Source: Escherichia phage EJP2
DNA: 64,000 nt
Strand: one strand, 5' to 3'
Sequence record: OQ411014.1
A program made the translations under genes and the position numbers. Shown here piece by piece: positions 2,072 through 64,000 of the stretch (positions within the stretch are counted from its first letter, which is position 1; each line of letters opens with the position of its first letter). The notes under the pieces were generated by a model, which did no database searches, was not told the DNA's origin, and saw only the letters and a list, made by a program, of their open reading frames with translations.

Positions 2072-3308
2072 AGGTCGCAAACTCGTAACAATTCGTAAAA
2101 TCAATGCAATTGATGCAATTGAAGGTGCAGATCTGATTGTCAAAGCAACTGTTGACGGTTGGGATGTAGTTGTGAAGAAAGATGAATTCAACGTTGGGGA
2201 TTACTGTGTATTCTTCGAAATCGATTCATTCCTTCCAGTACAGACACCACAATTCGCATTCTTGGCGGGTTCAGGCTGTAAACTCGATGAACAGAATGTA
2301 GAACGTTTCCGTCTACGTACTCGTAAACTTCGCGGGGTAGTCTCTCAAGGCTTGGCTCTACCAGTATCTCTATTTGAGGCAGTACTGGAAGCTATTGACG
2401 AAGCTGGTGGTCATCACCCTGACTCGTACACTACAACGGCACGTGAAGAACTCCTAGTGAGTCTAGAGGCGAATCGTGAAGGCATTGAGCAATTCCTCAA
2501 TGTAACCAAATACGAGCGTCCTGATGAGCGTAATGGCGGTACTGGTGCATCTAAGTGCAAAGCTGCTGGTAACTTCCCTATCGTCATTCCTAAGACTGAT
2601 GAAGACCGTATTCAGAACGTAATGGGTAAGTACTCTCAGACTATGAAAGGTGTTGCATTCCGTAAATCACTGAAACTGGATGGTTCTAGCCAGACAATTG
2701 CATTCATTAGCAATCCTGATTTCTTTGTAGATAAAGTTGATGAAGAAGTCCGTGCATGGAATGAAGAGACTCAAGAACTTGAAGTTGTTGAAGTGAAGCC
2801 ATACCCGTTCCAATGGGAAGATGGTCAGGTAGCAGTATGTTCTCGCAATCTTGCGTTGAAATTTGATGCTGAATCTCACTTCTGGAAAGCAGCACTGAAA
2901 GATGATATTCCAGCACGTCTGAAAGAGTACTGTGTTCGTAATGACCGCCAACTAGCACTACAAGGCGAAGTAATGGGTCCTGGTATCCAAGGGAACCGTG
3001 AAGAACTGACCGAACATCAATTCTACGTATTCCGTATTTGGGATATTGATAATAAATGTTTCCTTGATGATGGTGATTTCTTGACACTATCTGCACTACT
3101 GGGATTGACTACAGTACCGCAAGGTGATATCGTGTACTTCTTCGATGAATACACTTCTATCAAAGAAGCATTGGCATCTGCTGACCACGCATCTATCAAG
3201 CATAAGATCGCGGAAGGCGATGTGTTCAAAAGTGTATCTAAAGTGAATGGTGTTACTGTACACTTCAAGGTAATCAACAACAAATTCTTGCTCAAATGTG
3301 AGGACTAA
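2055..3308 (+). CDS. putative ATP-dependent RNA ligase (N-terminal OB-like domain plus nucleotidyltransferase domain)
   Basis: Covalent nucleotidyltransferase motif I KxDG (SLKLDGSS) and a motif-IV-like QGEVMG. N-terminal GADLIVKATVDGWDVVV...VGDYCVFFEIDSFLP resembles a tRNA-binding OB fold. Start moved from 1992 to ATG 2055, which has an RBS. Confidence 0.5.
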   Translation: MELVTEGRKLVTIRKINAIDAIEGADLIVKATVDGWDVVVKKDEFNVGDYCVFFEIDSFLPVQTPQFAFLAGSGCKLDEQNVERFRLRTRKLRGVVSQGLALPVSLFEAVLEAIDEAGGHHPDSYTTTAREELLVSLEANREGIEQFLNVTKYERPDERNGGTGASKCKAAGNFPIVIPKTDEDRIQNVMGKYSQTMKGVAFRKSLKLDGSSQTIAFISNPDFFVDKVDEEVRAWNEETQELEVVEVKPYPFQWEDGQVAVCSRNLALKFDAESHFWKAALKDDIPARLKEYCVRNDRQLALQGEVMGPGIQGNREELTEHQFYVFRIWDIDNKCFLDDGDFLTLSALLGLTTVPQGDIVYFFDEYTSIKEALASADHASIKHKIAEGDVFKSVSKVNGVTVHFKVINNKFLLKCED

Positions 3309-3916
3309 TGAAGAAAAAATTCGGCGTGGCGATAAATGACGCCGACTATGCTGTAACATCATATGACGATGCTGGTAAACGCCAGCATTGTCCCTTTTAT
3401 CGAAGATGGGCGAGTATGATAAATCGATGTTATGGTGATGTTGGTGCAACATACACTGAATCCTATGTATGTGATGAATGGTTAACCTTCTCTAACTTTA
3501 AGAGATGGATGGAAACACAAAAATGGGAAGGTATGGAGTTGGACAAAGATTTACTTTATATCAACAATAAGGAATATGGCCCAAATACATGTTTATTTTT
3601 ACCAAAGGTTATTAATTCACTATTCGTTGATAGTAAATCGAGCCGTGGTACTAATCCGATTGGTGTATCTTTTGAAAAACGTCGATTGAAATATGAAGCA
3701 TATATATCAATTGATAATAAGAAAAAACATCTTGGATATTTTGATAACCCAATTGATGCACATGTAAAATGGCAACATGCAAAATTGAAAGTATTGGAAG
3801 ATTTCATGAAAACGTTATCTGACCCTATACATATACAAATTGTAGATTTGCGAATCAACAAGCTAAAGAATGATATACAATCAAATATCATAACCGAATC
3901 TTTACATCATTTCTAA
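3308..3916 (+). CDS. AP2-domain protein, homing-endonuclease-like
   Basis: N-terminal YRRWASMINRCY...YVCDEWLTFSNFKRWM motif typical of phage free-standing endonuclease-like genes. C-terminal GVSFEKRRLKYEAYISIDNKKKHLGYFDNPIDAHVKW fits an AP2 DNA-binding domain. TAATG overlap with the upstream gene. Confidence 0.45.
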   Translation: MKKKFGVAINDADYAVTSYDDAGKRQHCPFYRRWASMINRCYGDVGATYTESYVCDEWLTFSNFKRWMETQKWEGMELDKDLLYINNKEYGPNTCLFLPKVINSLFVDSKSSRGTNPIGVSFEKRRLKYEAYISIDNKKKHLGYFDNPIDAHVKWQHAKLKVLEDFMKTLSDPIHIQIVDLRINKLKNDIQSNIITESLHHF

Positions 3917-4143: not shown

Positions 4144-4172
4144 TTGACAATCAAACAGTTTCGAGATAGACT
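4144..4172 (+). promoter_or_regulatory. sigma70-type promoter
   Basis: TTGACA 4144-4149, 17-bp spacer, TAGACT 4167-4172. Upstream of the LysM-lysozyme gene. Confidence 0.4.
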
Positions 4173-4279
4173 AGTGTTTCACTAGAGCTATGTAGAAAGT
4201 CCAAAAGAGGCTTTGTGCAAACGGAGCCTAATAACTCCTGTTGCTGAAGCTACACAATAATTAGCAAATAGGAGGAATT

Positions 4280-5200
4280 GTGCATAAAGCGATACAAGAA
4301 CTCAAAACTCGTACTAAGGTTGTTCTATTAGTAAGTTTTCTGTTGCTTGCCGCTGCTATTGGATTATATGGTTTATATCAAAATGATCGTACTACATCAT
4401 CGGGTTCAGAAGAATCAGTAGTACAAAATCAAATTCAAAAGCAACCAGTTACAACGTTACCAATGCAAAAGGCAACAGTACTGGAAAGCAGGAAGCAATA
4501 CGTAGTGCAAGCAGGTGATAGTTATTGGATCATCACTAATAAGATGAAACCTAATAACGTTGAACCACTTGAGTATATGGCAGTACTGAAGAAAGTGAAT
4601 AACAATGTTCAGTTACACACTGCTGTACCAATCTACGTGCCGAATGACAATGATTTGATGCATGTTACATTACCAGATGTGGTTGTCAAATTTGACGTAT
4701 ACGACGATATTGTCGTAAACCACATCAAGGAAGCAGAAGGTTCGAAGGAAGCACAGTCTAATAACAAGAGACGTCTTCTGGGTGGTAAAGTAGGTCCGTC
4801 ATTTAGTAAAAATCGTTTCTATCCTTACAAGGACACGAAAGGAAATTATACTATTGGGTACGGTCATTATATTGGTCCCAAAGAGTCCGAAGCGAGAAAG
4901 TATCGTTTTGGGTTGACCGAACGTGAAGCACACAAACTGTTGATTCAGGATATGAAAAAGACTCGTGAAGATTTCATATTGTTGCTGAAGCGTAAAAATG
5001 CAGTGAATCTAAGTGTTGAACAGCAACGTGTTTTATACGAAATGGCATTCAACATGGGCGTTGACAAACTGAGTACATTTGGTAAACTATGGAAAAGTGT
5101 AGAACGTCAAAATGAAAAGAAGTTCAAAAAAGAAATTGAGAACTCATTGTGGTACAGACAAGTAGGCAACCGTGCTGAAATGTTACTGAGTTCTCTATAA
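4280..5200 (+). CDS. membrane-anchored LysM plus T4-lysozyme-like (GH24) muramidase
   Basis: GTG start with AGGAGG RBS. N-terminal TM helix VVLLVSFLLLAAAIGLYGLY, LysM-like YVVQAGDSYWII, and C-terminal YKDTKGNYTIGYGH...SLWYRQVGNRAEML matching the T4 lysozyme core. Confidence 0.7.
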   Translation: MHKAIQELKTRTKVVLLVSFLLLAAAIGLYGLYQNDRTTSSGSEESVVQNQIQKQPVTTLPMQKATVLESRKQYVVQAGDSYWIITNKMKPNNVEPLEYMAVLKKVNNNVQLHTAVPIYVPNDNDLMHVTLPDVVVKFDVYDDIVVNHIKEAEGSKEAQSNNKRRLLGGKVGPSFSKNRFYPYKDTKGNYTIGYGHYIGPKESEARKYRFGLTEREAHKLLIQDMKKTREDFILLLKRKNAVNLSVEQQRVLYEMAFNMGVDKLSTFGKLWKSVERQNEKKFKKEIENSLWYRQVGNRAEMLLSSL

Positions 5201-5216
5201 CAGAGAGGTGTTATAT

Positions 5217-5549
5217 ATGCTAAATGTAAACGTTCAAGGTAATGTAGAAATCACTGACGCAATTCATGAACATATTCTGGCTGAAGCGGATCATCTAGAA
5301 AAGTACAGTACTGATAAAGTACTGGAACTTGATGTTCACGTGAAAAAAGAACACAAAACTCAATACACTGTAACAATCGTTGGTAACGGCAAATCCAGTA
5401 CTGCCAACGCTGCTGATTTATACAAAGCAATCACTGACTCCTTTGGTAAAATGGATAAAGTGCTTGGTAAAGATAAGAGTGTAAAAATCAGTCGCCGTAA
5501 CAATCCTGTTCATCCTGTTGAAATTGACTTGACAGAAGACGAAGAGTAA
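5217..5549 (+). CDS. hpf: ribosome hibernation promoting factor / RaiA (YfiA) homolog
   Basis: NVEITDAIHEHILAEADHLEKY...DLYKAITDSFGKMDKVLGKDK aligns along its length with the bacterial HPF/YfiA family. ATG at 5217 with AGAGAGGTG RBS. Confidence 0.75.
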   Translation: MLNVNVQGNVEITDAIHEHILAEADHLEKYSTDKVLELDVHVKKEHKTQYTVTIVGNGKSSTANAADLYKAITDSFGKMDKVLGKDKSVKISRRNNPVHPVEIDLTEDEE

Positions 5550-5561
5550 TACATAATACAA

Positions 5562-5586
5562 GGAAGCCATATGGCTTCCTTTTTTA
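5562..5586 (+). terminator. rho-independent terminator
   Basis: Hairpin GGAAGCCATATGGCTTCC followed by a T-run. Confidence 0.6.
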
Positions 5587-13202: not shown

Positions 13203-13285
13203 TCCCTTTCAGTACATTAGATTTAATCCTCCAATAAATAACATTATACGAATATTCTATAATACCAATTTTTTGGAGGATTAAA

Positions 13286-58964: not shown

Positions 58965-61900
58965 TTAGTTACCAATATTAATGTTACTCTTAGCCAAAGA
59001 ACTGACTATCTGAACGTTATCTACCGTTGCAGTACTGATAAACAACTGGTCAGGTCTACAAGGTATTTCAAACAATTCACCGAACTTACTATTGGGGTCT
59101 TGTGGAACGATCACAACTGCTGCCACATCAGTAGCCATACTTACTTGAATGTAAGTACTCAATTCTGTGAAGTAGAATGTCTCACCAAAGTCCCAGTTCT
59201 GAACATCGAAGTAATTACGAGTCAACTCGACAACTTTCTGACGAATTTCATCATTACTCAATGTGGTAGTAGGTAGTTTAACGATTTTTAAATCTGCACG
59301 ATAATCTTCATCTGCACTTGCACCAAATAGTTTTAAGAACTCAGCACTATGCCAAATGGAACTATCACTAATTACCATTTTACCCTCAACTTCAGTAAAC
59401 ATGTCTTGTAATTCAACTGATGTTGGTGGTTTAGGGAATTCACCAACTGCACCATTCTTAATCCAGATATTAACTGAATCATAATAGTTAGTAGTTAGAA
59501 CATACATATCAATTAAGTTTGTACGGCTTGGGTCGATACGGTTATCATCTGGAGCATAATGTTTCCATTGGAAATTTATACCGGTACGTGCACCAGTCCT
59601 GACAGTGTATTCATTACTCACATCAACATAACCATAATAAGACAATTTTAGCTTCTCGTCTTTATCATCTTGACCTTCATTCTGTGTTGCACGATAGAAT
59701 GCGAGTTCAGGACTGATAGTACTAGTGTCAGTTGGTAGCATCAGGTTGGAAATGAAATTATCAAGACGTTCGTTGTTGTTACCAACTGTTTGTTGAATGA
59801 AATGATATTCACCATCGTACTGATATGCAATCAAATACCCTGAACCATGATTATACAAATCACTAAAAGAATTGCTTCTTATTTGAACATTTCGCAAGAA
59901 CTCTTTTCTACGATACGCATTCACTTCTGCGTTTGCTTGTGCAGTGGTGTAAGTCCATGATGTATCAAGAATAGTATATGAATCATCATCTTCCAACATA
60001 TCAATAGTAAAATCATCGTTCTCATGGAATATCAACACACCACCATATTTTTGAAGGTCAGTACCGGACAATGTTGGAACTAAGCTACTGTACAAATCTG
60101 GTTCAAGAGGAATACCGTTGCTATCAGTGTTTTTACTAGTTATGATAACACGAGAACCATCAAGATATCCATTCTCTTGTTGAATAGTATCGTAGATTTG
60201 GAAATCAATATTCTGACTGTAACCCAAGTTACTTGTGTAAGATGCGTTATTGTTTAGGATTGCAATCTTGTCAGACTGAACAGTACCAGTACTGATATCA
60301 CTAATCTTCTTGGATGAAACAAAGTAGAATTTAACTTTAGAACCACCAACAAAAATGTACTCAACACCATTACTAACAAATTCCCATGATTCCGCAGTGT
60401 ATTGAACGTTCACTAGAATTGGATATGTAATACCATTATATAGAATTGTTGAACCACTGTATGTTCCTTCAATTGGAATCCATGTATGGGATGATGTGTC
60501 ATAGATGATAACGAAATCAGTCTTCTTATCAATGGCTGCTGCAATTTGTTGAACTTCAGAAGTATTGAACTTAACACGATATGGTTCAATATAAGAATCA
60601 ATAGTCATTGCTGCATCTACTGGTGTAGACAATACATAATAACCATCATCCAGTACTGATACGATAGAAGTCCAAACGGAGTTACCAGTAGTACCTTCCA
60701 TCTTAATCAACGTACCAACTTCATAGGTTTCAATCGGTACACCACTCTGTAGGAATTGACCATAAGTATTGTTCGTATAAGATGAGTTGTGCTCTGGAGT
60801 CCATATTTGGTTAAACGTAACAACGATTGTGTTGCTGTCCCATTGTTGATAATATTGAATAACAGAGTTCTCCCCAAGCAATGGTTGAATATTATCTATC
60901 ACAATACTTTCATTGCTTTTTGGTGATGGTAGAAGAAGAGTGTTACTCTTATTCACGTTCTCTTTATACATTGCACCATCATCACTAAACACATCAGTGT
61001 TTTGATATTTCCCAGTAGGGTCATTGATATCAATGAATCTGGACATACCGCTATAGATACGGTTTAGTGCTTTTCCTTTAATTACTGCGTTACCTAGCAT
61101 TAGTGGTGCGATATTATAATCTTCACCAGTAACGAAACGGTCTTGGGTGTAATACATTTGTGGAGCACGGTCTTTAATCTGTTCGATGGTTTCAGCACTC
61201 TGTGCTAGTCTGGATTCACGTTGTAGTGTGAATTTGACATCCAATGAACTATTTTCATAATCAGTTTGTGACTTAGTACGGTAAACATACTTAACACTTT
61301 TATTCTGAATTGAACTGGTCTTGATAGTGTATGATTTACCATTACTAACACGATACCATACACGGTATGTACCACGAGGAACAGTACCTGAACGTGCATC
61401 TGGATACTTAATTGTGATTTGGTCACGGTCACGAGTAGTTACAGAATAAATTGTTTTCTTTTGACGATCAACTGAGTTATATGCAATACTTTCCATTGAT
61501 GGAACTTGTGTCCATTTGGTTCTTACTATACCATCTTCGTTGATTTCTTGAACCCATACATCAGTTTGGTTTATATTGTCAACGTTCACATCCTGTAAAC
61601 GGTTTTCAATTCGAGTATCATACTGATAATCACTATAAGACAATGAACCTTGTTTAAAGTAAACAAAGAAGCCTGTATCTGGTGAACTAAAACCATTACC
61701 ATCATTTGAATAGATAATGTACTTCTGGTCTTGTGGTTCTGGCATACGTTCAGAAACACCAACAGTACTGATATCTGGGTTAACAACTTCGAACGTTACT
61801 GTTTCGCCGTTGATGTTTGCACTAAATGGCATATTAGGAGCACTCATAGGTAGAGTGTTCATGCGATACAATTGAGTGTTAATACCATTAATCATAATCT

Positions 61901-62426
61901 TCTTAACTGGATTACCAAATTGGTTAGTACTGATGAATGAACTATTCATAACTAGAATAAAGTTCTCGTACCAGTTAGGATCTGCTGGGTCATTCCATTG
62001 AATCGTACGGCCTTTAAGAGATTGGTTGTAGCTGTTTAGTACGTCTTGGTTTGTTTTAATTTCAGTAATTTTGGCTACTGCACGACCTGGATAAGCACGC
62101 TTAGGTGAATACGAAATCATCTTAGCAAGTTTCAGTACTGAAGCTCTGCGTTCTGCGGTATCTAGGAAGTTTTCACGAGTGTTCATGTCCATACGGAATG
62201 CCAAGTTCTGCCCTAGCATACTAATGGTGTCGAGAATGAAGATGAATTCGTCGTTTTCAATCCAGTCGTTGAACTGATCTGGATAAGTGATTCGTAGATA
62301 CTCTACCATACTTTCACGAATCGTATCAAAGTCAAAAGCGGTAAGGTTGATCTTATAAAAACTCTCATACACCTGCTTCCAGTCCTCGGCAGTGTATAAG
62401 TTGGACTGTCTTTTTTGTTGTGCCAT
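58965..62426 (-). CDS. large baseplate wedge-like protein (about 1153 aa)
   Basis: ATG at 62426 with AAGGA RBS. Immediately downstream of the gp25-like gene, as gp6/J-type wedge genes are. Confidence 0.55.
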   Translation of the reverse strand: MAQQKRQSNLYTAEDWKQVYESFYKINLTAFDFDTIRESMVEYLRITYPDQFNDWIENDEFIFILDTISMLGQNLAFRMDMNTRENFLDTAERRASVLKLAKMISYSPKRAYPGRAVAKITEIKTNQDVLNSYNQSLKGRTIQWNDPADPNWYENFILVMNSSFISTNQFGNPVKKIMINGINTQLYRMNTLPMSAPNMPFSANINGETVTFEVVNPDISTVGVSERMPEPQDQKYIIYSNDGNGFSSPDTGFFVYFKQGSLSYSDYQYDTRIENRLQDVNVDNINQTDVWVQEINEDGIVRTKWTQVPSMESIAYNSVDRQKKTIYSVTTRDRDQITIKYPDARSGTVPRGTYRVWYRVSNGKSYTIKTSSIQNKSVKYVYRTKSQTDYENSSLDVKFTLQRESRLAQSAETIEQIKDRAPQMYYTQDRFVTGEDYNIAPLMLGNAVIKGKALNRIYSGMSRFIDINDPTGKYQNTDVFSDDGAMYKENVNKSNTLLLPSPKSNESIVIDNIQPLLGENSVIQYYQQWDSNTIVVTFNQIWTPEHNSSYTNNTYGQFLQSGVPIETYEVGTLIKMEGTTGNSVWTSIVSVLDDGYYVLSTPVDAAMTIDSYIEPYRVKFNTSEVQQIAAAIDKKTDFVIIYDTSSHTWIPIEGTYSGSTILYNGITYPILVNVQYTAESWEFVSNGVEYIFVGGSKVKFYFVSSKKISDISTGTVQSDKIAILNNNASYTSNLGYSQNIDFQIYDTIQQENGYLDGSRVIITSKNTDSNGIPLEPDLYSSLVPTLSGTDLQKYGGVLIFHENDDFTIDMLEDDDSYTILDTSWTYTTAQANAEVNAYRRKEFLRNVQIRSNSFSDLYNHGSGYLIAYQYDGEYHFIQQTVGNNNERLDNFISNLMLPTDTSTISPELAFYRATQNEGQDDKDEKLKLSYYGYVDVSNEYTVRTGARTGINFQWKHYAPDDNRIDPSRTNLIDMYVLTTNYYDSVNIWIKNGAVGEFPKPPTSVELQDMFTEVEGKMVISDSSIWHSAEFLKLFGASADEDYRADLKIVKLPTTTLSNDEIRQKVVELTRNYFDVQNWDFGETFYFTELSTYIQVSMATDVAAVVIVPQDPNSKFGELFEIPCRPDQLFISTATVDNVQIVSSLAKSNINIGN

Positions 62427-62496
62427 AATTAATCCTTGCGTTCTAATATGAGTTATATATCTTACGTTTTCTATGCACACGTATTATGAATTTATT

Positions 62497-62527
62497 TATC
62501 CAAAAAGAAAGACACCCGAAGGTGTCT
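62497..62527 (-). terminator. terminator hairpin with UUCG tetraloop
   Basis: Minus-strand reading AGACACC-TTCG-GGTGTCT followed by TTCTTTTT. Confidence 0.5.
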
Positions 62528-62533
62528 TAGAAA

Positions 62534-62926
62534 TTATGCGGCATTTGAAACAATTGCCATCTTTTCGTTCGCTTCTCTGTCGAACTGTATGAATAGAGTT
62601 TCTTCGGTGTCGAGTTCCACATAGTAAAGGAACAAGTTAACACGAAAACCTCTATCAGTACTTAGGACTTCAACATATTGGAGTGAAACTCTAGGGTCAC
62701 CAGCAACAATGCGACGAGCATCCGCTTCTAATAGATTTTTATTACTATAAATGTCCAATTCAAATAATAAATCCCACCCTACAAATCCATATTGTGCATC
62801 CATAGCACGTTCACCTTTTCTGGTGTTGAAGTGGTTTAATAGATCGCGTTTGACTAGCTCCACATCATAAAGAACTTCAGTTCTTCCCACCTGTGGGGAT
62901 GCAAACCCCTTGTATATCACTGCCAT
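62534..62926 (-). CDS. baseplate wedge protein, gp25/GpW-like
   Basis: NTRKGERAMDAQYGFVGWDLLFE ... RVSLQYVEV pattern as in T4 gp25-family proteins. Confidence 0.7.
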   Translation of the reverse strand: MAVIYKGFASPQVGRTEVLYDVELVKRDLLNHFNTRKGERAMDAQYGFVGWDLLFELDIYSNKNLLEADARRIVAGDPRVSLQYVEVLSTDRGFRVNLFLYYVELDTEETLFIQFDREANEKMAIVSNAA

Positions 62927-62941
62927 ATTATTTTATCCTTA

Positions 62942-63430
62942 TTATTGGGATTCTACAATACGAGCTAATTTCTCTGCACGTGAAGTAGTTTGCTTATACC
63001 AAGTACTATCACGCATTTGACGTCCAGCTTCTTTATAATCACCCGCACCCATAGCAGCTAATGCTTTTTTGAAACCTAGAACACGACGTTTACCCATTTG
63101 AAAACACATTTGCCACAATACACGCTGGAGATCAATACCACCTTTCATACCGAATTGCTCATAAATCTCTTTTGCGTCATTAAATGCAACAGTTGCGTCT
63201 TTAATTAGTAGTGCATCGCCTTCTGACTCAGTTAAACCATTAGGAAATGTTTCGCCATTTACTAGCAAGTGACCATAACCAATAGTTGGTAAACCTAGAC
63301 TGTCTTTATATACATGAAACCGCCCGTTTTTAAAATATCCCTTCTTAGTTTGATAAGCGATAGTACCTTCATGCTCACGTACTTCTTTGTGGAAGATACT
63401 ATCGTCATTTTTTAAAACCCAATTGCTCAT
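62942..63430 (-). CDS. T4-lysozyme-like muramidase (GH24)
   Basis: HEG ... YKDSLGLPTIGYGHLL (Glu, Asp and Thr equivalents present) and CFQMG ... DSTWYKQTTSRAEKL colinear with T4 lysozyme. Confidence 0.8.
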   Translation of the reverse strand: MSNWVLKNDDSIFHKEVREHEGTIAYQTKKGYFKNGRFHVYKDSLGLPTIGYGHLLVNGETFPNGLTESEGDALLIKDATVAFNDAKEIYEQFGMKGGIDLQRVLWQMCFQMGKRRVLGFKKALAAMGAGDYKEAGRQMRDSTWYKQTTSRAEKLARIVESQ

Positions 63431-63463
63431 AATTTACCCTCTGTTATGTTAGTGGTAAATTAT

Positions 63464-64000
63464 TTATGCACATGCCTCGATTCTGCGTGCTAATTCCTCA
63501 ACACGTCTACGAGTTTGTCTATACCAAGTACTGTCACGCATTTCATGGGCTGCTAATTTGTAATTGCCTGCTGCTAGTGCTTTTAAGAAATTGGTAAACC
63601 CACGAACGCCACCACCACGTGTTTTACTACCAGCACCAAGCTGGAATACCATCTCTGTCAGTACTATCTGTGCCATATAAGGTGTTTGCATCTTATATTC
63701 AGCATAAATTTGACATGCAGAGTTTACGGATGAAACCAAATCTTTTTTAAGAATAGTTTCAGCTTCAGCTTCTGTAATACCATTAGGGAAACCACCATCT
63801 GCTCTAGTTAGGAAGTGACCATAACCAATTGTCAGACCATGAGCATCAACATAAGGCCAGAATCTACCATTACGGAAGGTTCCAACTGATGTTTGGTATC
63901 CAATGTTACCTTCAAACTCTTTAATATCCGAAACAAGCTGGTTATCACTCGGTTGTACCTTCCAACCAATCTTGGATTTGTCAATAGAACTCAAATCAAC
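63464..64000 (-). CDS. T4-lysozyme-like muramidase paralog, start at or beyond window edge
   Basis: FEGNIGYQ ... HGLTIGYGHFL ... DSTWYRQTRRRVEEL. The only in-window start is a TTG at 63994 and the frame is open to nt 64000. Confidence 0.7.
   Translation of the reverse strand, partial: VDLSSIDKSKIGWKVQPSDNQLVSDIKEFEGNIGYQTSVGTFRNGRFWPYVDAHGLTIGYGHFLTRADGGFPNGITEAEAETILKKDLVSSVNSACQIYAEYKMQTPYMAQIVLTEMVFQLGAGSKTRGGGVRGFTNFLKALAAGNYKLAAHEMRDSTWYRQTRRRVEELARRIEACA

What the first reader, a model, noticed from the sequence alone, without database searches (positions are those of the whole stretch)
4280..5200. Three T4-lysozyme-like genes, one membrane-anchored with a LysM domain
ORF 4280-5200 combines an N-terminal TM helix, a LysM-like segment and a T4-lysozyme-like domain. 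Two further tandem T4L-like paralogs lie at 62942-63430 and 63464-64000 beside the baseplate wedge gene. In the two tandem copies the Glu, Asp and Thr catalytic equivalents appear present with an insertion between Glu and Asp. In the anchored copy the catalytic Glu position is uncertain. Possible roles are a signal-anchor-release type endolysin and baseplate-associated wall-digesting enzymes.
Basis: partly seen in the sequence, partly recalled or inferred. Interest (0 to 1): 0.45.

Follow-up and report, generated by a model that had tools for sequence, protein, structure and literature searches.

The report
Three lysozyme domains of a jumbo phage
This jumbo E. coli phage (EJP2, RaK2-like group) carries three T4-lysozyme-type wall-cutting domains: a membrane-anchored LysM enzyme, a small soluble enzyme, and the tail-hub tip domain. 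The same trio has already been described in related phages, so the finding is real but ordinary.

Summary
All three sequences pass Pfam's Phage_lysozyme threshold and carry the Glu/Asp/Thr triad. All three share an insertion after the catalytic Glu.

One correction: "copy 3" (63464-64000, minus strand) is not a gene. It is residues 726-903 of a 903 aa gp5-like baseplate hub protein, cut by the window edge.

In the anchored copy (4280-5200) the "uncertain" Glu is E153, invariant in 42 homologues. Its TM helix and LysM domain are supported by family conservation, profile hits to solved LysM structures and an AlphaFold model.

The window is Escherichia phage EJP2. The same trio was described for RaK2 (2013) and CBB (2017), where the anchored enzyme is the predicted endolysin. 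The hub protein has been found in virions of relatives, and a homologue of the small enzyme is lytic in vitro.

The SAR label is doubtful:
- the TM helix is Leu-rich;
- it lies 120 residues from the active site;
- the protein has no cysteine.

A stable anchor or a cleavable signal peptide is equally possible. Which of the two free enzymes drives lysis is unresolved. Only the small one has a late-promoter motif. The anchored one sits in a non-late gene block behind a highly structured leader. Rz-like spanins lie just outside the window.

Novelty: already known. Interest: low.

The parts
4280..5200 (+). Copy A: 306 aa TM-LysM-GH24 protein, 100% identical to EJP02_183 of Escherichia phage EJP2; orthologue of CBB_187 / GAP32 gp180 / 121Q gp532
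   Evidence: (phrog_15410 full length, E 2e-134)
4319..4378 (+). N-terminal hydrophobic helix, residues 14-33 (VVLLVSFLLLAAAIGLYGLY). It is preceded by a net-positive segment, which implies N-in/C-out topology. The conserved AAA-(I/F)-G could be a signal-peptidase site.
   Evidence: helix 3-27 in the model, at low pLDDT
4379..4483 (+). Ser/Thr/Gln-rich linker, residues 34-68, predicted disordered
   Evidence: pLDDT below 50 for residues 1-67
4493..4642 (+). Degenerate LysM domain, residues ~72-121, with a family-specific longer loop (KPxNVE) between the two helices
4697..5197 (+). GH24 (T4-lysozyme-like) domain, residues ~140-306. Catalytic E153 (4736-4738), D185 (4832-4834), T191 (4850-4852). 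23-residue insertion, residues 155-177 (4742-4810), predicted as an extra beta-hairpin.
4226..4283 (+). Leader hairpin in which the Shine-Dalgarno AGGAGG (4270-4275) and the GUG start are base-paired. A second conserved stem-loop lies at 4208-4229.
   Evidence: (dG -19.4 kcal/mol, z -3.5). Internal control: SD pairing is not exceptional, but this leader is the most stable of 40.
4144..4172 (+). Sigma-70-like TTGACA-17-TAGACT (10 of 12 matches). Weak evidence only.
   Evidence: 12 such sites found against 6.4 expected in the 2 kb region
5560..5581 (+). Terminator-like hairpin closing the unit formed by copy A and the HPF-like gene
62942..63430 (-). Copy B: standalone 162 aa soluble GH24 lysozyme. 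Catalytic E21 (63370-63368), D43 (63304-63302), T49 (63286-63284). 13-residue insertion after the Glu-Gly.
63461..63467 (-). Late-promoter-type motif ATAAATA overlapping the hub stop codon, 31 nt upstream of the copy B ATG
   Evidence: 11 of 15 occurrences lie within 100 nt upstream of a same-strand start; 0.66 expected
63464..64000 (-). Copy C: C-terminal GH24 domain (residues 726-903 plus stop) of a 903 aa gp5-like baseplate hub protein, cut by the window end. Catalytic E755 (63913-63911), D777 (63847-63845), T782 (63832-63830), with D-x4-T spacing.
62534..62926 (-). gp25-like baseplate wedge gene, last gene of the hub / copy B / gp25 unit
62509..62528 (-). Terminator-like hairpin after the gp25-like gene

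Best explanation
The window is from the RaK2-like jumbo myovirus Escherichia phage EJP2. It carries the three-lysozyme set that is conserved across that group. All three are GH24 muramidase domains of one subfamily, marked by an insertion right after the catalytic Glu.

(1) Copy C is the C-terminal domain of the 903 aa gp5-like central hub protein. It is carried in the virion and most likely digests peptidoglycan locally during tail penetration. The domain identity is shown; the role is inferred from T4 gp5 and from virion proteomics of relatives.

(2) Copy A is inserted into the inner membrane by its N-terminal hydrophobic helix, with the LysM and lysozyme domains in the periplasm. It therefore reaches the wall without a large-hole holin. 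It most likely acts as the phage's endolysin, or one of two, degrading the wall so that the Rz-like spanins encoded about 10 kb upstream can finish lysis. Topology and domains are shown or predicted. Activity, release mechanism and timing are inferred.

(3) Copy B is a soluble cytoplasmic T4L-like enzyme with its own late-promoter motif inside the baseplate operon. It is either a holin-dependent second endolysin or a low-copy baseplate component.
For: GH24 membership and triads. Folds: for A; for B (TM 0.72, rmsd 2.6 A to T4L; the top hit is the T4 gp5 lysozyme domain). Shared insertion, with B and C 45% identical. C is part of the hub gene. The hub has an OB fold, a beta-helix and a weak M23 domain. 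Hub homologues were detected in virions of CBB and phAPEC6, while homologues of A and B were not. The TM helix and positive-inside N-terminus of A are conserved. LysM. The CBB authors predicted the A orthologue to be the endolysin and reported growth inhibition on induction (data not shown). A purified homologue of B (LysUE1) lyses EDTA-treated cells. Small members of the same E-x21-D subfamily occur in prophages. An Rz-like spanin plus a lipoprotein pair lies on a near-identical contig. The trio was already reported for RaK2.
Against: No activity, localisation or timing data exist for this phage. No holin was identified in the window.

Copy A lies in a block of non-structural genes (RNA ligase, HPF-like, tRNA nucleotidyltransferase). 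That block has no late ATAAATA motif anywhere on its strand between 1 and 9998. This is unexpected for a classical late endolysin, and copy B does have the motif.

The Glu of copy A could not be aligned to T4L Glu11 by any local sequence method, because of the insertion. The assignment rests on invariance, a global alignment and model topology, not on a residue-level superposition.

The toxicity report for CBB_187 is 'data not shown'.
Confidence: 0.6

Rival explanations
1. Copy B, not copy A, is the true lysis endolysin: a T4 gene e analogue released through a holin. Copy A would have another periplasmic role, such as wall remodelling during the long infection cycle or an auxiliary or back-up lysin.
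For: B is the right size and fold for a soluble endolysin. It has a late-promoter motif 31 nt upstream. It was not found in virions of relatives. Its homologue is lytic in vitro. 147-150 aa members of the same subfamily sit in prophages of enterobacteria. B and C are 45% identical; T4 lysozyme and the T4 gp5 domain are related at about 43% identity (own knowledge). A lies in a non-late gene block.
Against: B is embedded between the hub and gp25 genes in nearly all relatives, which suggests a structural or assembly role. A low-copy virion protein can escape mass spectrometry; RaK2 missed even its hub protein. No holin has been identified. An exported, toxic lysozyme (A) would be hard to tolerate if it were not part of lysis.
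Confidence: 0.3
2. Copy A is a genuine SAR endolysin. Its helix would leave the membrane when a pinholin collapses the proton-motive force, as in P1 Lyz, phage 21 R and N4 gp61.
For: It has an N-terminal TM domain on a GH24 muramidase, and no canonical holin lies nearby. The CBB authors suggested this. The A orthologue is toxic when induced. The helix contains a conserved AAA-x-G stretch.
Against: The published definition is a weakly hydrophobic, Gly/Ala-rich domain. It is about 120 residues from the catalytic Glu. The protein has no cysteine, so P1-type disulfide caging is impossible. The model does not dock the helix onto the enzyme, unlike the R21-type refolding.
Confidence: 0.2
3. The N-terminus of copy A is a cleavable Sec signal peptide (n-region 1-13, h-region 14-23, A-A-A cleavage motif 24-26), which releases a soluble periplasmic LysM-lysozyme.
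For: A25 and A26 are nearly invariant, and position 24 is A/V/I across the family, which fits the -3/-1 rule. There is precedent for a claimed SAR domain turning out to be a signal peptide (T4 RI, cited in the reference list seen). Lactococcal LysP335 has a TM domain plus a predicted signal-peptidase site plus LysM.
Against: The hydrophobic stretch continues for 7 residues past the putative site, giving 20 in total, which is typical of a TM span. There is no polar c-region. No signal-peptide predictor was available here. A freely soluble periplasmic lysozyme would need another control to avoid premature lysis.
Confidence: 0.2

Closest known systems
CBB_187 / GAP32 gp180 / 121Q gp532: the predicted endolysin of RaK2-like jumbo phages (Buttimer et al. 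2017, PMC5259590)
   Same: Orthologues of copy A (54-60% identity). They share the TM / LysM-like / lysozyme architecture and the same neighbour, an HPF-like gene.
   Different: Nothing fundamental. The LysM of the window copy is more degenerate, with no direct Pfam hit. EJP2 annotates the protein as hypothetical, and the EJP2 paper does not discuss it.
T4 gp5, the baseplate central spike and tail lysozyme
   Same: OB-fold N-terminus, beta-helix, and a GH24 domain with the Glu/Asp/Thr triad. The gene lies next to the wedge genes, and the protein is virion-borne in relatives.
   Different: 903 aa against 575 aa. The lysozyme domain is C-terminal, after the beta-helix and a weak M23-like region, rather than central. 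It has a 13-residue insertion after the Glu. RaK2 and CBB had already noted this architecture.
T4 gene e lysozyme (T4L), and LysUE1 of jumbo phage UE-S1
   Same: Copy B is a 162 aa soluble single-domain GH24 enzyme that superposes on full-length T4L. LysUE1, a 162 aa homologue, is lytic on EDTA-treated cells.
   Different: E-x21-D spacing instead of E-x8-D. B sits inside the baseplate operon rather than at a lysis locus.
SAR endolysins (P1 Lyz, phage 21 R, N4 gp61)
   Same: An N-terminal TM domain on a T4-type muramidase, implying holin-independent export.
   Different: The helix is Leu-rich rather than Gly/Ala-rich. A 120-residue spacer with a LysM domain separates it from the active site. 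There is no cysteine and no predicted docking of the helix.
Exported TM/signal-peptide endolysins with LysM in phages of Gram-positive hosts (e.g. Lactococcus LysP335)
   Same: An N-terminal TM domain, a possible signal-peptidase site, a LysM wall-binding module and a muramidase. It was proposed to wait at the membrane until released.
   Different: GH25 rather than GH24. Its LysM modules are C-terminal and duplicated. The host is Gram-positive.

Membership tests
GH24 / Pfam PF00959 Phage_lysozyme (T4-type) | Profile match above the curated gathering score | tested here: met
   A 44.9 bits, B 33.7 bits and C 36.7 bits, against a cut-off of 22.3
GH24 / Pfam PF00959 Phage_lysozyme (T4-type) | Catalytic Glu, Asp and Thr equivalents of T4L E11/D20/T26 | tested here: met
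   A: E153/D185/T191. B: E21/D43/T49. C: E755/D777/T782. The Glu-Gly and the Asp are invariant in alignments of 42 and 48 sequences. Caveat: Asp and Thr align directly to T4L. The Glu is assigned from invariance, a global alignment and model topology, because local alignments do not cross the insertion.
GH24 / Pfam PF00959 Phage_lysozyme (T4-type) | Two-lobed T4 lysozyme fold | tested here: met
   Model of A: pLDDT above 90 over residues 68-306, Foldseek to T4L E 1.5e-6, target TM 0.62-0.66. Model of B: pLDDT 92.3, TM 0.72, rmsd 2.6 A over the full length. C was not modelled.
GH24 / Pfam PF00959 Phage_lysozyme (T4-type) | Muramidase activity | not testable with these tools
   Indirect only. 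A homologue of B (LysUE1) is lytic in vitro, and the orthologue of A is toxic on induction (data not shown in that paper).
LysM peptidoglycan-binding domain (PF01476) | Profile match of the window sequence itself | tested here: not met
   No PF01476 hit at E<=1 for the window copy
LysM peptidoglycan-binding domain (PF01476) | Homology at family level and beta-alpha-alpha-beta topology | tested here: met
   38 of 42 homologues hit PF01476 (best E 1.3e-6). The family profile hits solved LysM domains: LytE 2.2e-9, 4uz2 3.6e-8 over the whole domain, Ecp6 1.6e-7. The model has E73-75, H82-89, H96-106 and E117-119.
SAR (signal-arrest-release) endolysin | N-terminal TM domain with N-in/C-out topology | tested here: met
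   Residues 14-33, Kyte-Doolittle 2.58; the N-terminal segment is net positive; conserved in the family
SAR (signal-arrest-release) endolysin | Weakly hydrophobic helix rich in Gly/Ala (definition) | tested here: not met
   32% Gly/Ala/Ser/Thr with a Leu/Val/Phe core, against 53% (P1 Lyz) and 63% (R21) by the same measure.
SAR (signal-arrest-release) endolysin | The SAR helix takes part in regulating the adjacent catalytic domain (disulfide caging or refolding) | tested here: not met
   The protein has no cysteine (sequence). About 120 residues, including the linker and LysM, separate the helix from E153. The helix is not docked in the model.
SAR (signal-arrest-release) endolysin | Release from the membrane on depolarisation | not testable with these tools
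   Needs fractionation experiments
gp5-like baseplate hub / tail lysozyme | N-terminal OB fold and beta-helix in the same polypeptide as the lysozyme | tested here: met
   The 903 aa gene lies on a contig with identical DNA. The Hallingskeid orthologue has Phage_base_V at 25.6 bits (cut-off 23.8) and a DUF2345 beta-helix. These parts lie outside the window.
gp5-like baseplate hub / tail lysozyme | Presence in the virion | not testable with these tools
   Homologues were detected by mass spectrometry in CBB (CBB_240) and phAPEC6 (gp241), but not in RaK2

The most novel reading that the evidence does not exclude
Copy A is neither a SAR endolysin nor a classical late endolysin. It would be a stably tethered or signal-peptide-processed periplasmic LysM-muramidase, transcribed outside the late regulon, whose translation is gated by a conserved leader hairpin that buries the Shine-Dalgarno and start codon. 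That would be a T4 gene e-like translational switch. Copy B would be the late, holin-dependent endolysin. RaK2-like jumbo phages would then use two differently controlled exit muramidases, or use A for a pre-lysis wall function.
Probability: 0.15. Interest if true: 0.5.

Novelty: already known. Interest (0 to 1): 0.2.

Why it matters
It matters little for discovery. The trio of lysozymes, the unusual hub architecture and the TM-LysM-lysozyme predicted endolysin were published for RaK2 (2013) and CBB (2017), and EJP2 itself is a published genome.

The open question is mechanistic and modest. No RaK2-like phage has an experimentally defined lysis system. It is not known whether the membrane-anchored LysM enzyme or the small soluble enzyme drives lysis, nor how the anchored enzyme is released. 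A cell-wall-binding module on an exported endolysin is rare in phages of Gram-negative hosts, and could interest people who engineer lysins.

Tried and rejected
- Megablast of the baseplate end against the phage collection found nothing, so protein-level searches were needed.
- Pfam LysM on the window copy alone gave no hit. A family profile resolved it.
- phmmer and hhalign against T4L cannot cross the insertion, and start at T4L residue 14-16. A residue-level sequence alignment of the Glu was therefore not obtained.
- The holin/spanin search inside the window found nothing. The only other convincing membrane ORF is a 47 aa 'membrane protein' PHROG at 1283-1426.
- The T4 late promoter TATAAATA is absent near copy A and not enriched overall. 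The shorter ATAAATA from the CBB paper was informative.
- The promoter features in the fHe-Yen9-03 record are automated predictions and gave nothing useful.
- NCBIfam added nothing beyond weak domain hits.
- The prophage context of small subfamily members is only weakly lysis-cassette-like, with a homing endonuclease inserted.
- The leader hairpin of copy A is stable and conserved, with some compensatory changes. The internal control shows that predicted SD pairing is common in this window: copy A ranks 9th of 40, median 0.66. Translational gating is kept as a hypothesis only. Rfam has no match.
- The EJP2 paper says nothing about these genes.

Full report
WHAT IS THERE. The three reading frames exist: 4280-5200 on the + strand (GTG start, 306 aa, "copy A"), 62942-63430 on the - strand (162 aa, "copy B") and 63464-64000 on the - strand ("copy C"). 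Each passes Pfam's curated threshold for PF00959 Phage_lysozyme, with E 1.8e-11, 5.3e-8 and 6.2e-9. A gp25-like wedge gene (PF04965) lies at 62534-62926. PHROGs assigns A full-length to phrog_15410 (unknown function). [quoted passage not shown]

IDENTITY OF THE GENOME. Copy A is 100% identical over its full length to hypothetical protein EJP02_183 of Escherichia phage EJP2. It sits on a 349,185 bp contig, which is the genome size given in the EJP2 paper. Protein searches place the window in the RaK2 / GAP32 / CBB / 121Q group of ~350 kb jumbo myoviruses. The closest annotated relative is Erwinia phage Hallingskeid, at 73% for A and 63% for C. Every listed relative has three matching places.

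CORRECTION: COPY C IS A DOMAIN, NOT A GENE. The frame is open to the last base of the window. In Hallingskeid and RaK2 the matching sequence is the C-terminus of a single 902 or 886 aa hub gene. A metagenomic contig encodes the identical copy B protein, and its DNA is identical to the window over the 537 bases of copy C. That contig has a 903 aa gene whose residues 726-903 are exactly the window fragment. The Hallingskeid orthologue carries an OB fold (Phage_base_V, above threshold), a beta-helix (DUF2345) and a weak M23 peptidase match ahead of the lysozyme. So the window holds two lysozyme genes plus the lysozyme domain of the gp5-like hub gene.

CATALYTIC RESIDUES AND THE INSERTION. Local alignments to T4 lysozyme (phmmer, hhalign) begin at T4L residue 14-16. 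They align YKDTKGNYTIGYGH of copy A with YKDTEGYYTIGIGH of T4L, which fixes the Asp20 and Thr26 equivalents. They do not reach Glu11, because all three domains carry an insertion directly after a Glu-Gly pair. In a 42-sequence family alignment of A, E153-G154 and D185 are invariant and T191 nearly so. In a 48-sequence alignment of B, E21, G22, D43 and T49 are invariant. A global alignment puts these Glu-Gly pairs on T4L E11-G12. In the AlphaFold models the Glu ends the first helix of the domain, as it does in T4L (own knowledge), and an extra beta-hairpin follows. The triads are A E153/D185/T191, B E21/D43/T49 and C E755/D777/T782. The insertion is 23 residues in A and 13 in B and C, with a shared motif EG-x3-Q...(K/R)N(G)(R/K)F-x-Y-x-D. 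B and C are 45% identical. A is 31% identical to each, and all three are 28-30% identical to T4L. The insertion is not peculiar to this phage. 100 of 120 homologues of B have E-x21-D, including 147-150 aa proteins in Pantoea, Rahnella and Klebsiella genomes. The most distant hits have the canonical E-x8-D.

COPY A ARCHITECTURE. Residues 14-33 form a strongly hydrophobic helix after a net-positive N-terminus, conserved throughout the family. This implies an N-in/C-out orientation with the rest of the protein in the periplasm. Residues 34-68 are predicted disordered. Residues 73-119 form beta-alpha-alpha-beta. Residues ~140-306 form the lysozyme fold with pLDDT above 90, and T4L is the top structural match. 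The window's LysM segment gives no Pfam hit by itself, but 38 of 42 homologues do. A profile of the segment finds solved LysM domains at 2e-9 to 2e-7.

IS COPY A A SAR ENDOLYSIN? A SAR domain is described as weakly hydrophobic, Gly/Ala-rich and flanked by charges. It is ~120 residues from the catalytic Glu. The protein has no cysteine, and the model does not dock the helix on the enzyme. Neither known SAR regulatory mechanism therefore fits. The nearly invariant A-A-A before (I/F)-G would also suit a signal-peptidase site. Export is well supported. SAR, a stable anchor and a cleaved signal peptide all remain open.

WHAT IS ALREADY PUBLISHED.
- The RaK2 paper reported "three potential lysozymes". 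It also reported the unusual hub protein with a C-terminal lysozyme, and the absence of a T4-type holin.
- The CBB paper described CBB_187 (TM / weak LysM / lysozyme) as the predicted endolysin, with orthologues in GAP32, 121Q and RaK2. It suggested a signal-arrest system and reported growth inhibition on induction (data not shown).
- The same paper described CBB_238/239/240 as gp25, a T4-type lysozyme and a gp5-OB / M23 / C-terminal lysozyme protein. Only 238 and 240 were confirmed in virions.
- phAPEC6 proteomics found only the 95.9 kDa hub lysozyme.
- LysUE1, the 162 aa homologue of B from an Asteriusvirus, was purified and lyses EDTA-treated cells. Asteriusvirus-type homologues are about 68% identical to B.
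- The EJP2 paper does not discuss any of this.

CONTEXT AND TIMING. Copy A and a downstream HPF-like gene form a compact unit that ends in a terminator hairpin. The pairing is conserved in CBB, XbC2 and fEgEco12. The surrounding genes are an RNA ligase, a homing endonuclease, a tRNA nucleotidyltransferase and NUDIX/glutaredoxin genes, not structural genes. The CBB paper proposed ATAAATA as the late promoter of this group. In the window, 11 of 15 occurrences lie within 100 nt upstream of a same-strand gene start, against 0.66 expected by chance. One occurrence overlaps the hub stop codon, 31 nt before the ATG of copy B. There is none on the + strand between 1 and 9998, the block that holds copy A. 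Upstream of A there is only a sigma-70-like match, and such matches are common by chance. So B looks late-expressed and A does not obviously.

THE LEADER OF COPY A. The leader is predicted to form a hairpin that pairs the Shine-Dalgarno and the GUG start (-19.4 kcal/mol, z -3.5). The CBB and fHe-Yen9-03 leaders do the same with different arm sequences. Across 19 distinct leaders the mean SD pairing probability is 0.71, against 0.56 for shuffled controls. Within one clade, 2 of 12 pairs show double compensatory changes. The internal control limits this: predicted SD pairing is common among the window's genes (median 0.66), and A ranks 9th of 40, although its leader is the most stable of all. 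I keep translational gating, reminiscent of T4 gene e (own knowledge), as a hypothesis only.

LYSIS PARTNERS. No holin or spanin is in the window. A near-identical contig (12 mismatches in the 921 bases of copy A) extends upstream of the window. About 10.4 kb before copy A it carries a 118 aa Rz-like spanin (phrog_1152, E 1.8e-10) overlapping a 107 aa lipoprotein-like gene. Just before the window start it carries an 82 aa holin-like membrane protein with no family match. The same spanin-like pair is present in fEgEco12, annotated as "FtsB" and "lipoprotein". The lysis genes of this lineage are therefore dispersed.

VERDICT. The most likely picture is a division of labour. The hub domain serves entry. 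The exported LysM enzyme serves as the endolysin, or one of two. The small late enzyme is either a second, holin-dependent endolysin or a minor baseplate component. All of this has been described for close relatives, so novelty is "already known" and interest is low. The remaining open question is which enzyme drives lysis, and how the anchored one is released and timed.

Noticed in passing
window 5208-5549 (+): A ribosome hibernation-promoting-factor-like gene lies 8 nt downstream of copy A in the same transcription unit (PF02482 E 1.7e-12; TIGR00741 41.8 bits against a cut-off of 40.9). The lysozyme-HPF pairing is conserved in CBB, XbC2 and fEgEco12.
   Followed up: partly
window 4208-4283 (+): The leader of copy A has two predicted hairpins. 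One is a conserved stem-loop built on GAGGCUUUGUGCAAA. The other pairs the Shine-Dalgarno and the start codon. This is the most stable leader of 40 genes in the window. The SD/start region (GAGGAATTGTGCATA) resembles the upstream motif with 3 mismatches. There is no Rfam match.
   Followed up: partly
window, 15 sites (e.g. 63467-63461 -, 62499-62493 -, 58929-58923 -, 13234-13240 +): ATAAATA is strongly tied to gene starts: 11 of 15 occurrences lie within 100 nt upstream of a same-strand start, against 0.66 expected. It lies mostly before structural genes, consistent with the late promoter proposed for CBB and GAP32.
   Followed up: yes
window 3308-3916 (+): The HNH homing-endonuclease gene between the RNA ligase and the small ORF upstream of copy A is absent from a near-identical metagenomic contig (L011). 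It looks like a mobile insertion that is polymorphic within this phage lineage.
   Followed up: partly
L011:2419-3095 and L011:8299-8547 (upstream of the window; window base 1 = L011 9218): An Rz-like spanin (118 aa) overlaps a lipoprotein-like gene (107 aa, MKKLILSIVFACTVLLCGC...), and there is an 82 aa holin-like protein with a charged C-terminus. The lysis genes are dispersed rather than in a cassette. The same spanin-like pair in fEgEco12 is annotated 'FtsB' and 'lytic conversion lipoprotein'.
   Followed up: partly
L001:3823-6531 (Hallingskeid hub gene): In the closest annotated relative, the hub lysozyme domain has Asp in place of the Thr26 equivalent (…NDIGYGH) and a longer loop after the catalytic Asp. 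Pfam no longer detects PF00959 there. Its catalytic mechanism or activity may differ.
   Followed up: no
L004:4256-6967 / L001 (hub gene, outside the window): The hub protein has a weak M23-peptidase-like region (E 0.0066) between the beta-helix and the lysozyme, so it may carry two wall-degrading modules. The CBB authors had already noted this.
   Followed up: no
window 58965-62480 (-): The mechanical ORF for the gp6-like wedge protein starts at GTG 62480. The PHROG alignment begins at residue 19, and gene calls on identical contigs give 1153 aa, so the real start is probably the ATG at 62426. An ATAAATA motif lies 67 nt upstream of that ATG.
   Followed up: partly
P0175-P0192 (Klebsiella aerogenes chromosomal homologues of copy B): These proteins are annotated as 122-129 aa, starting after the catalytic Glu (MGYYRNGMFRVYKD…). 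They are either mis-called starts or decayed prophage lysozymes.
   Followed up: no
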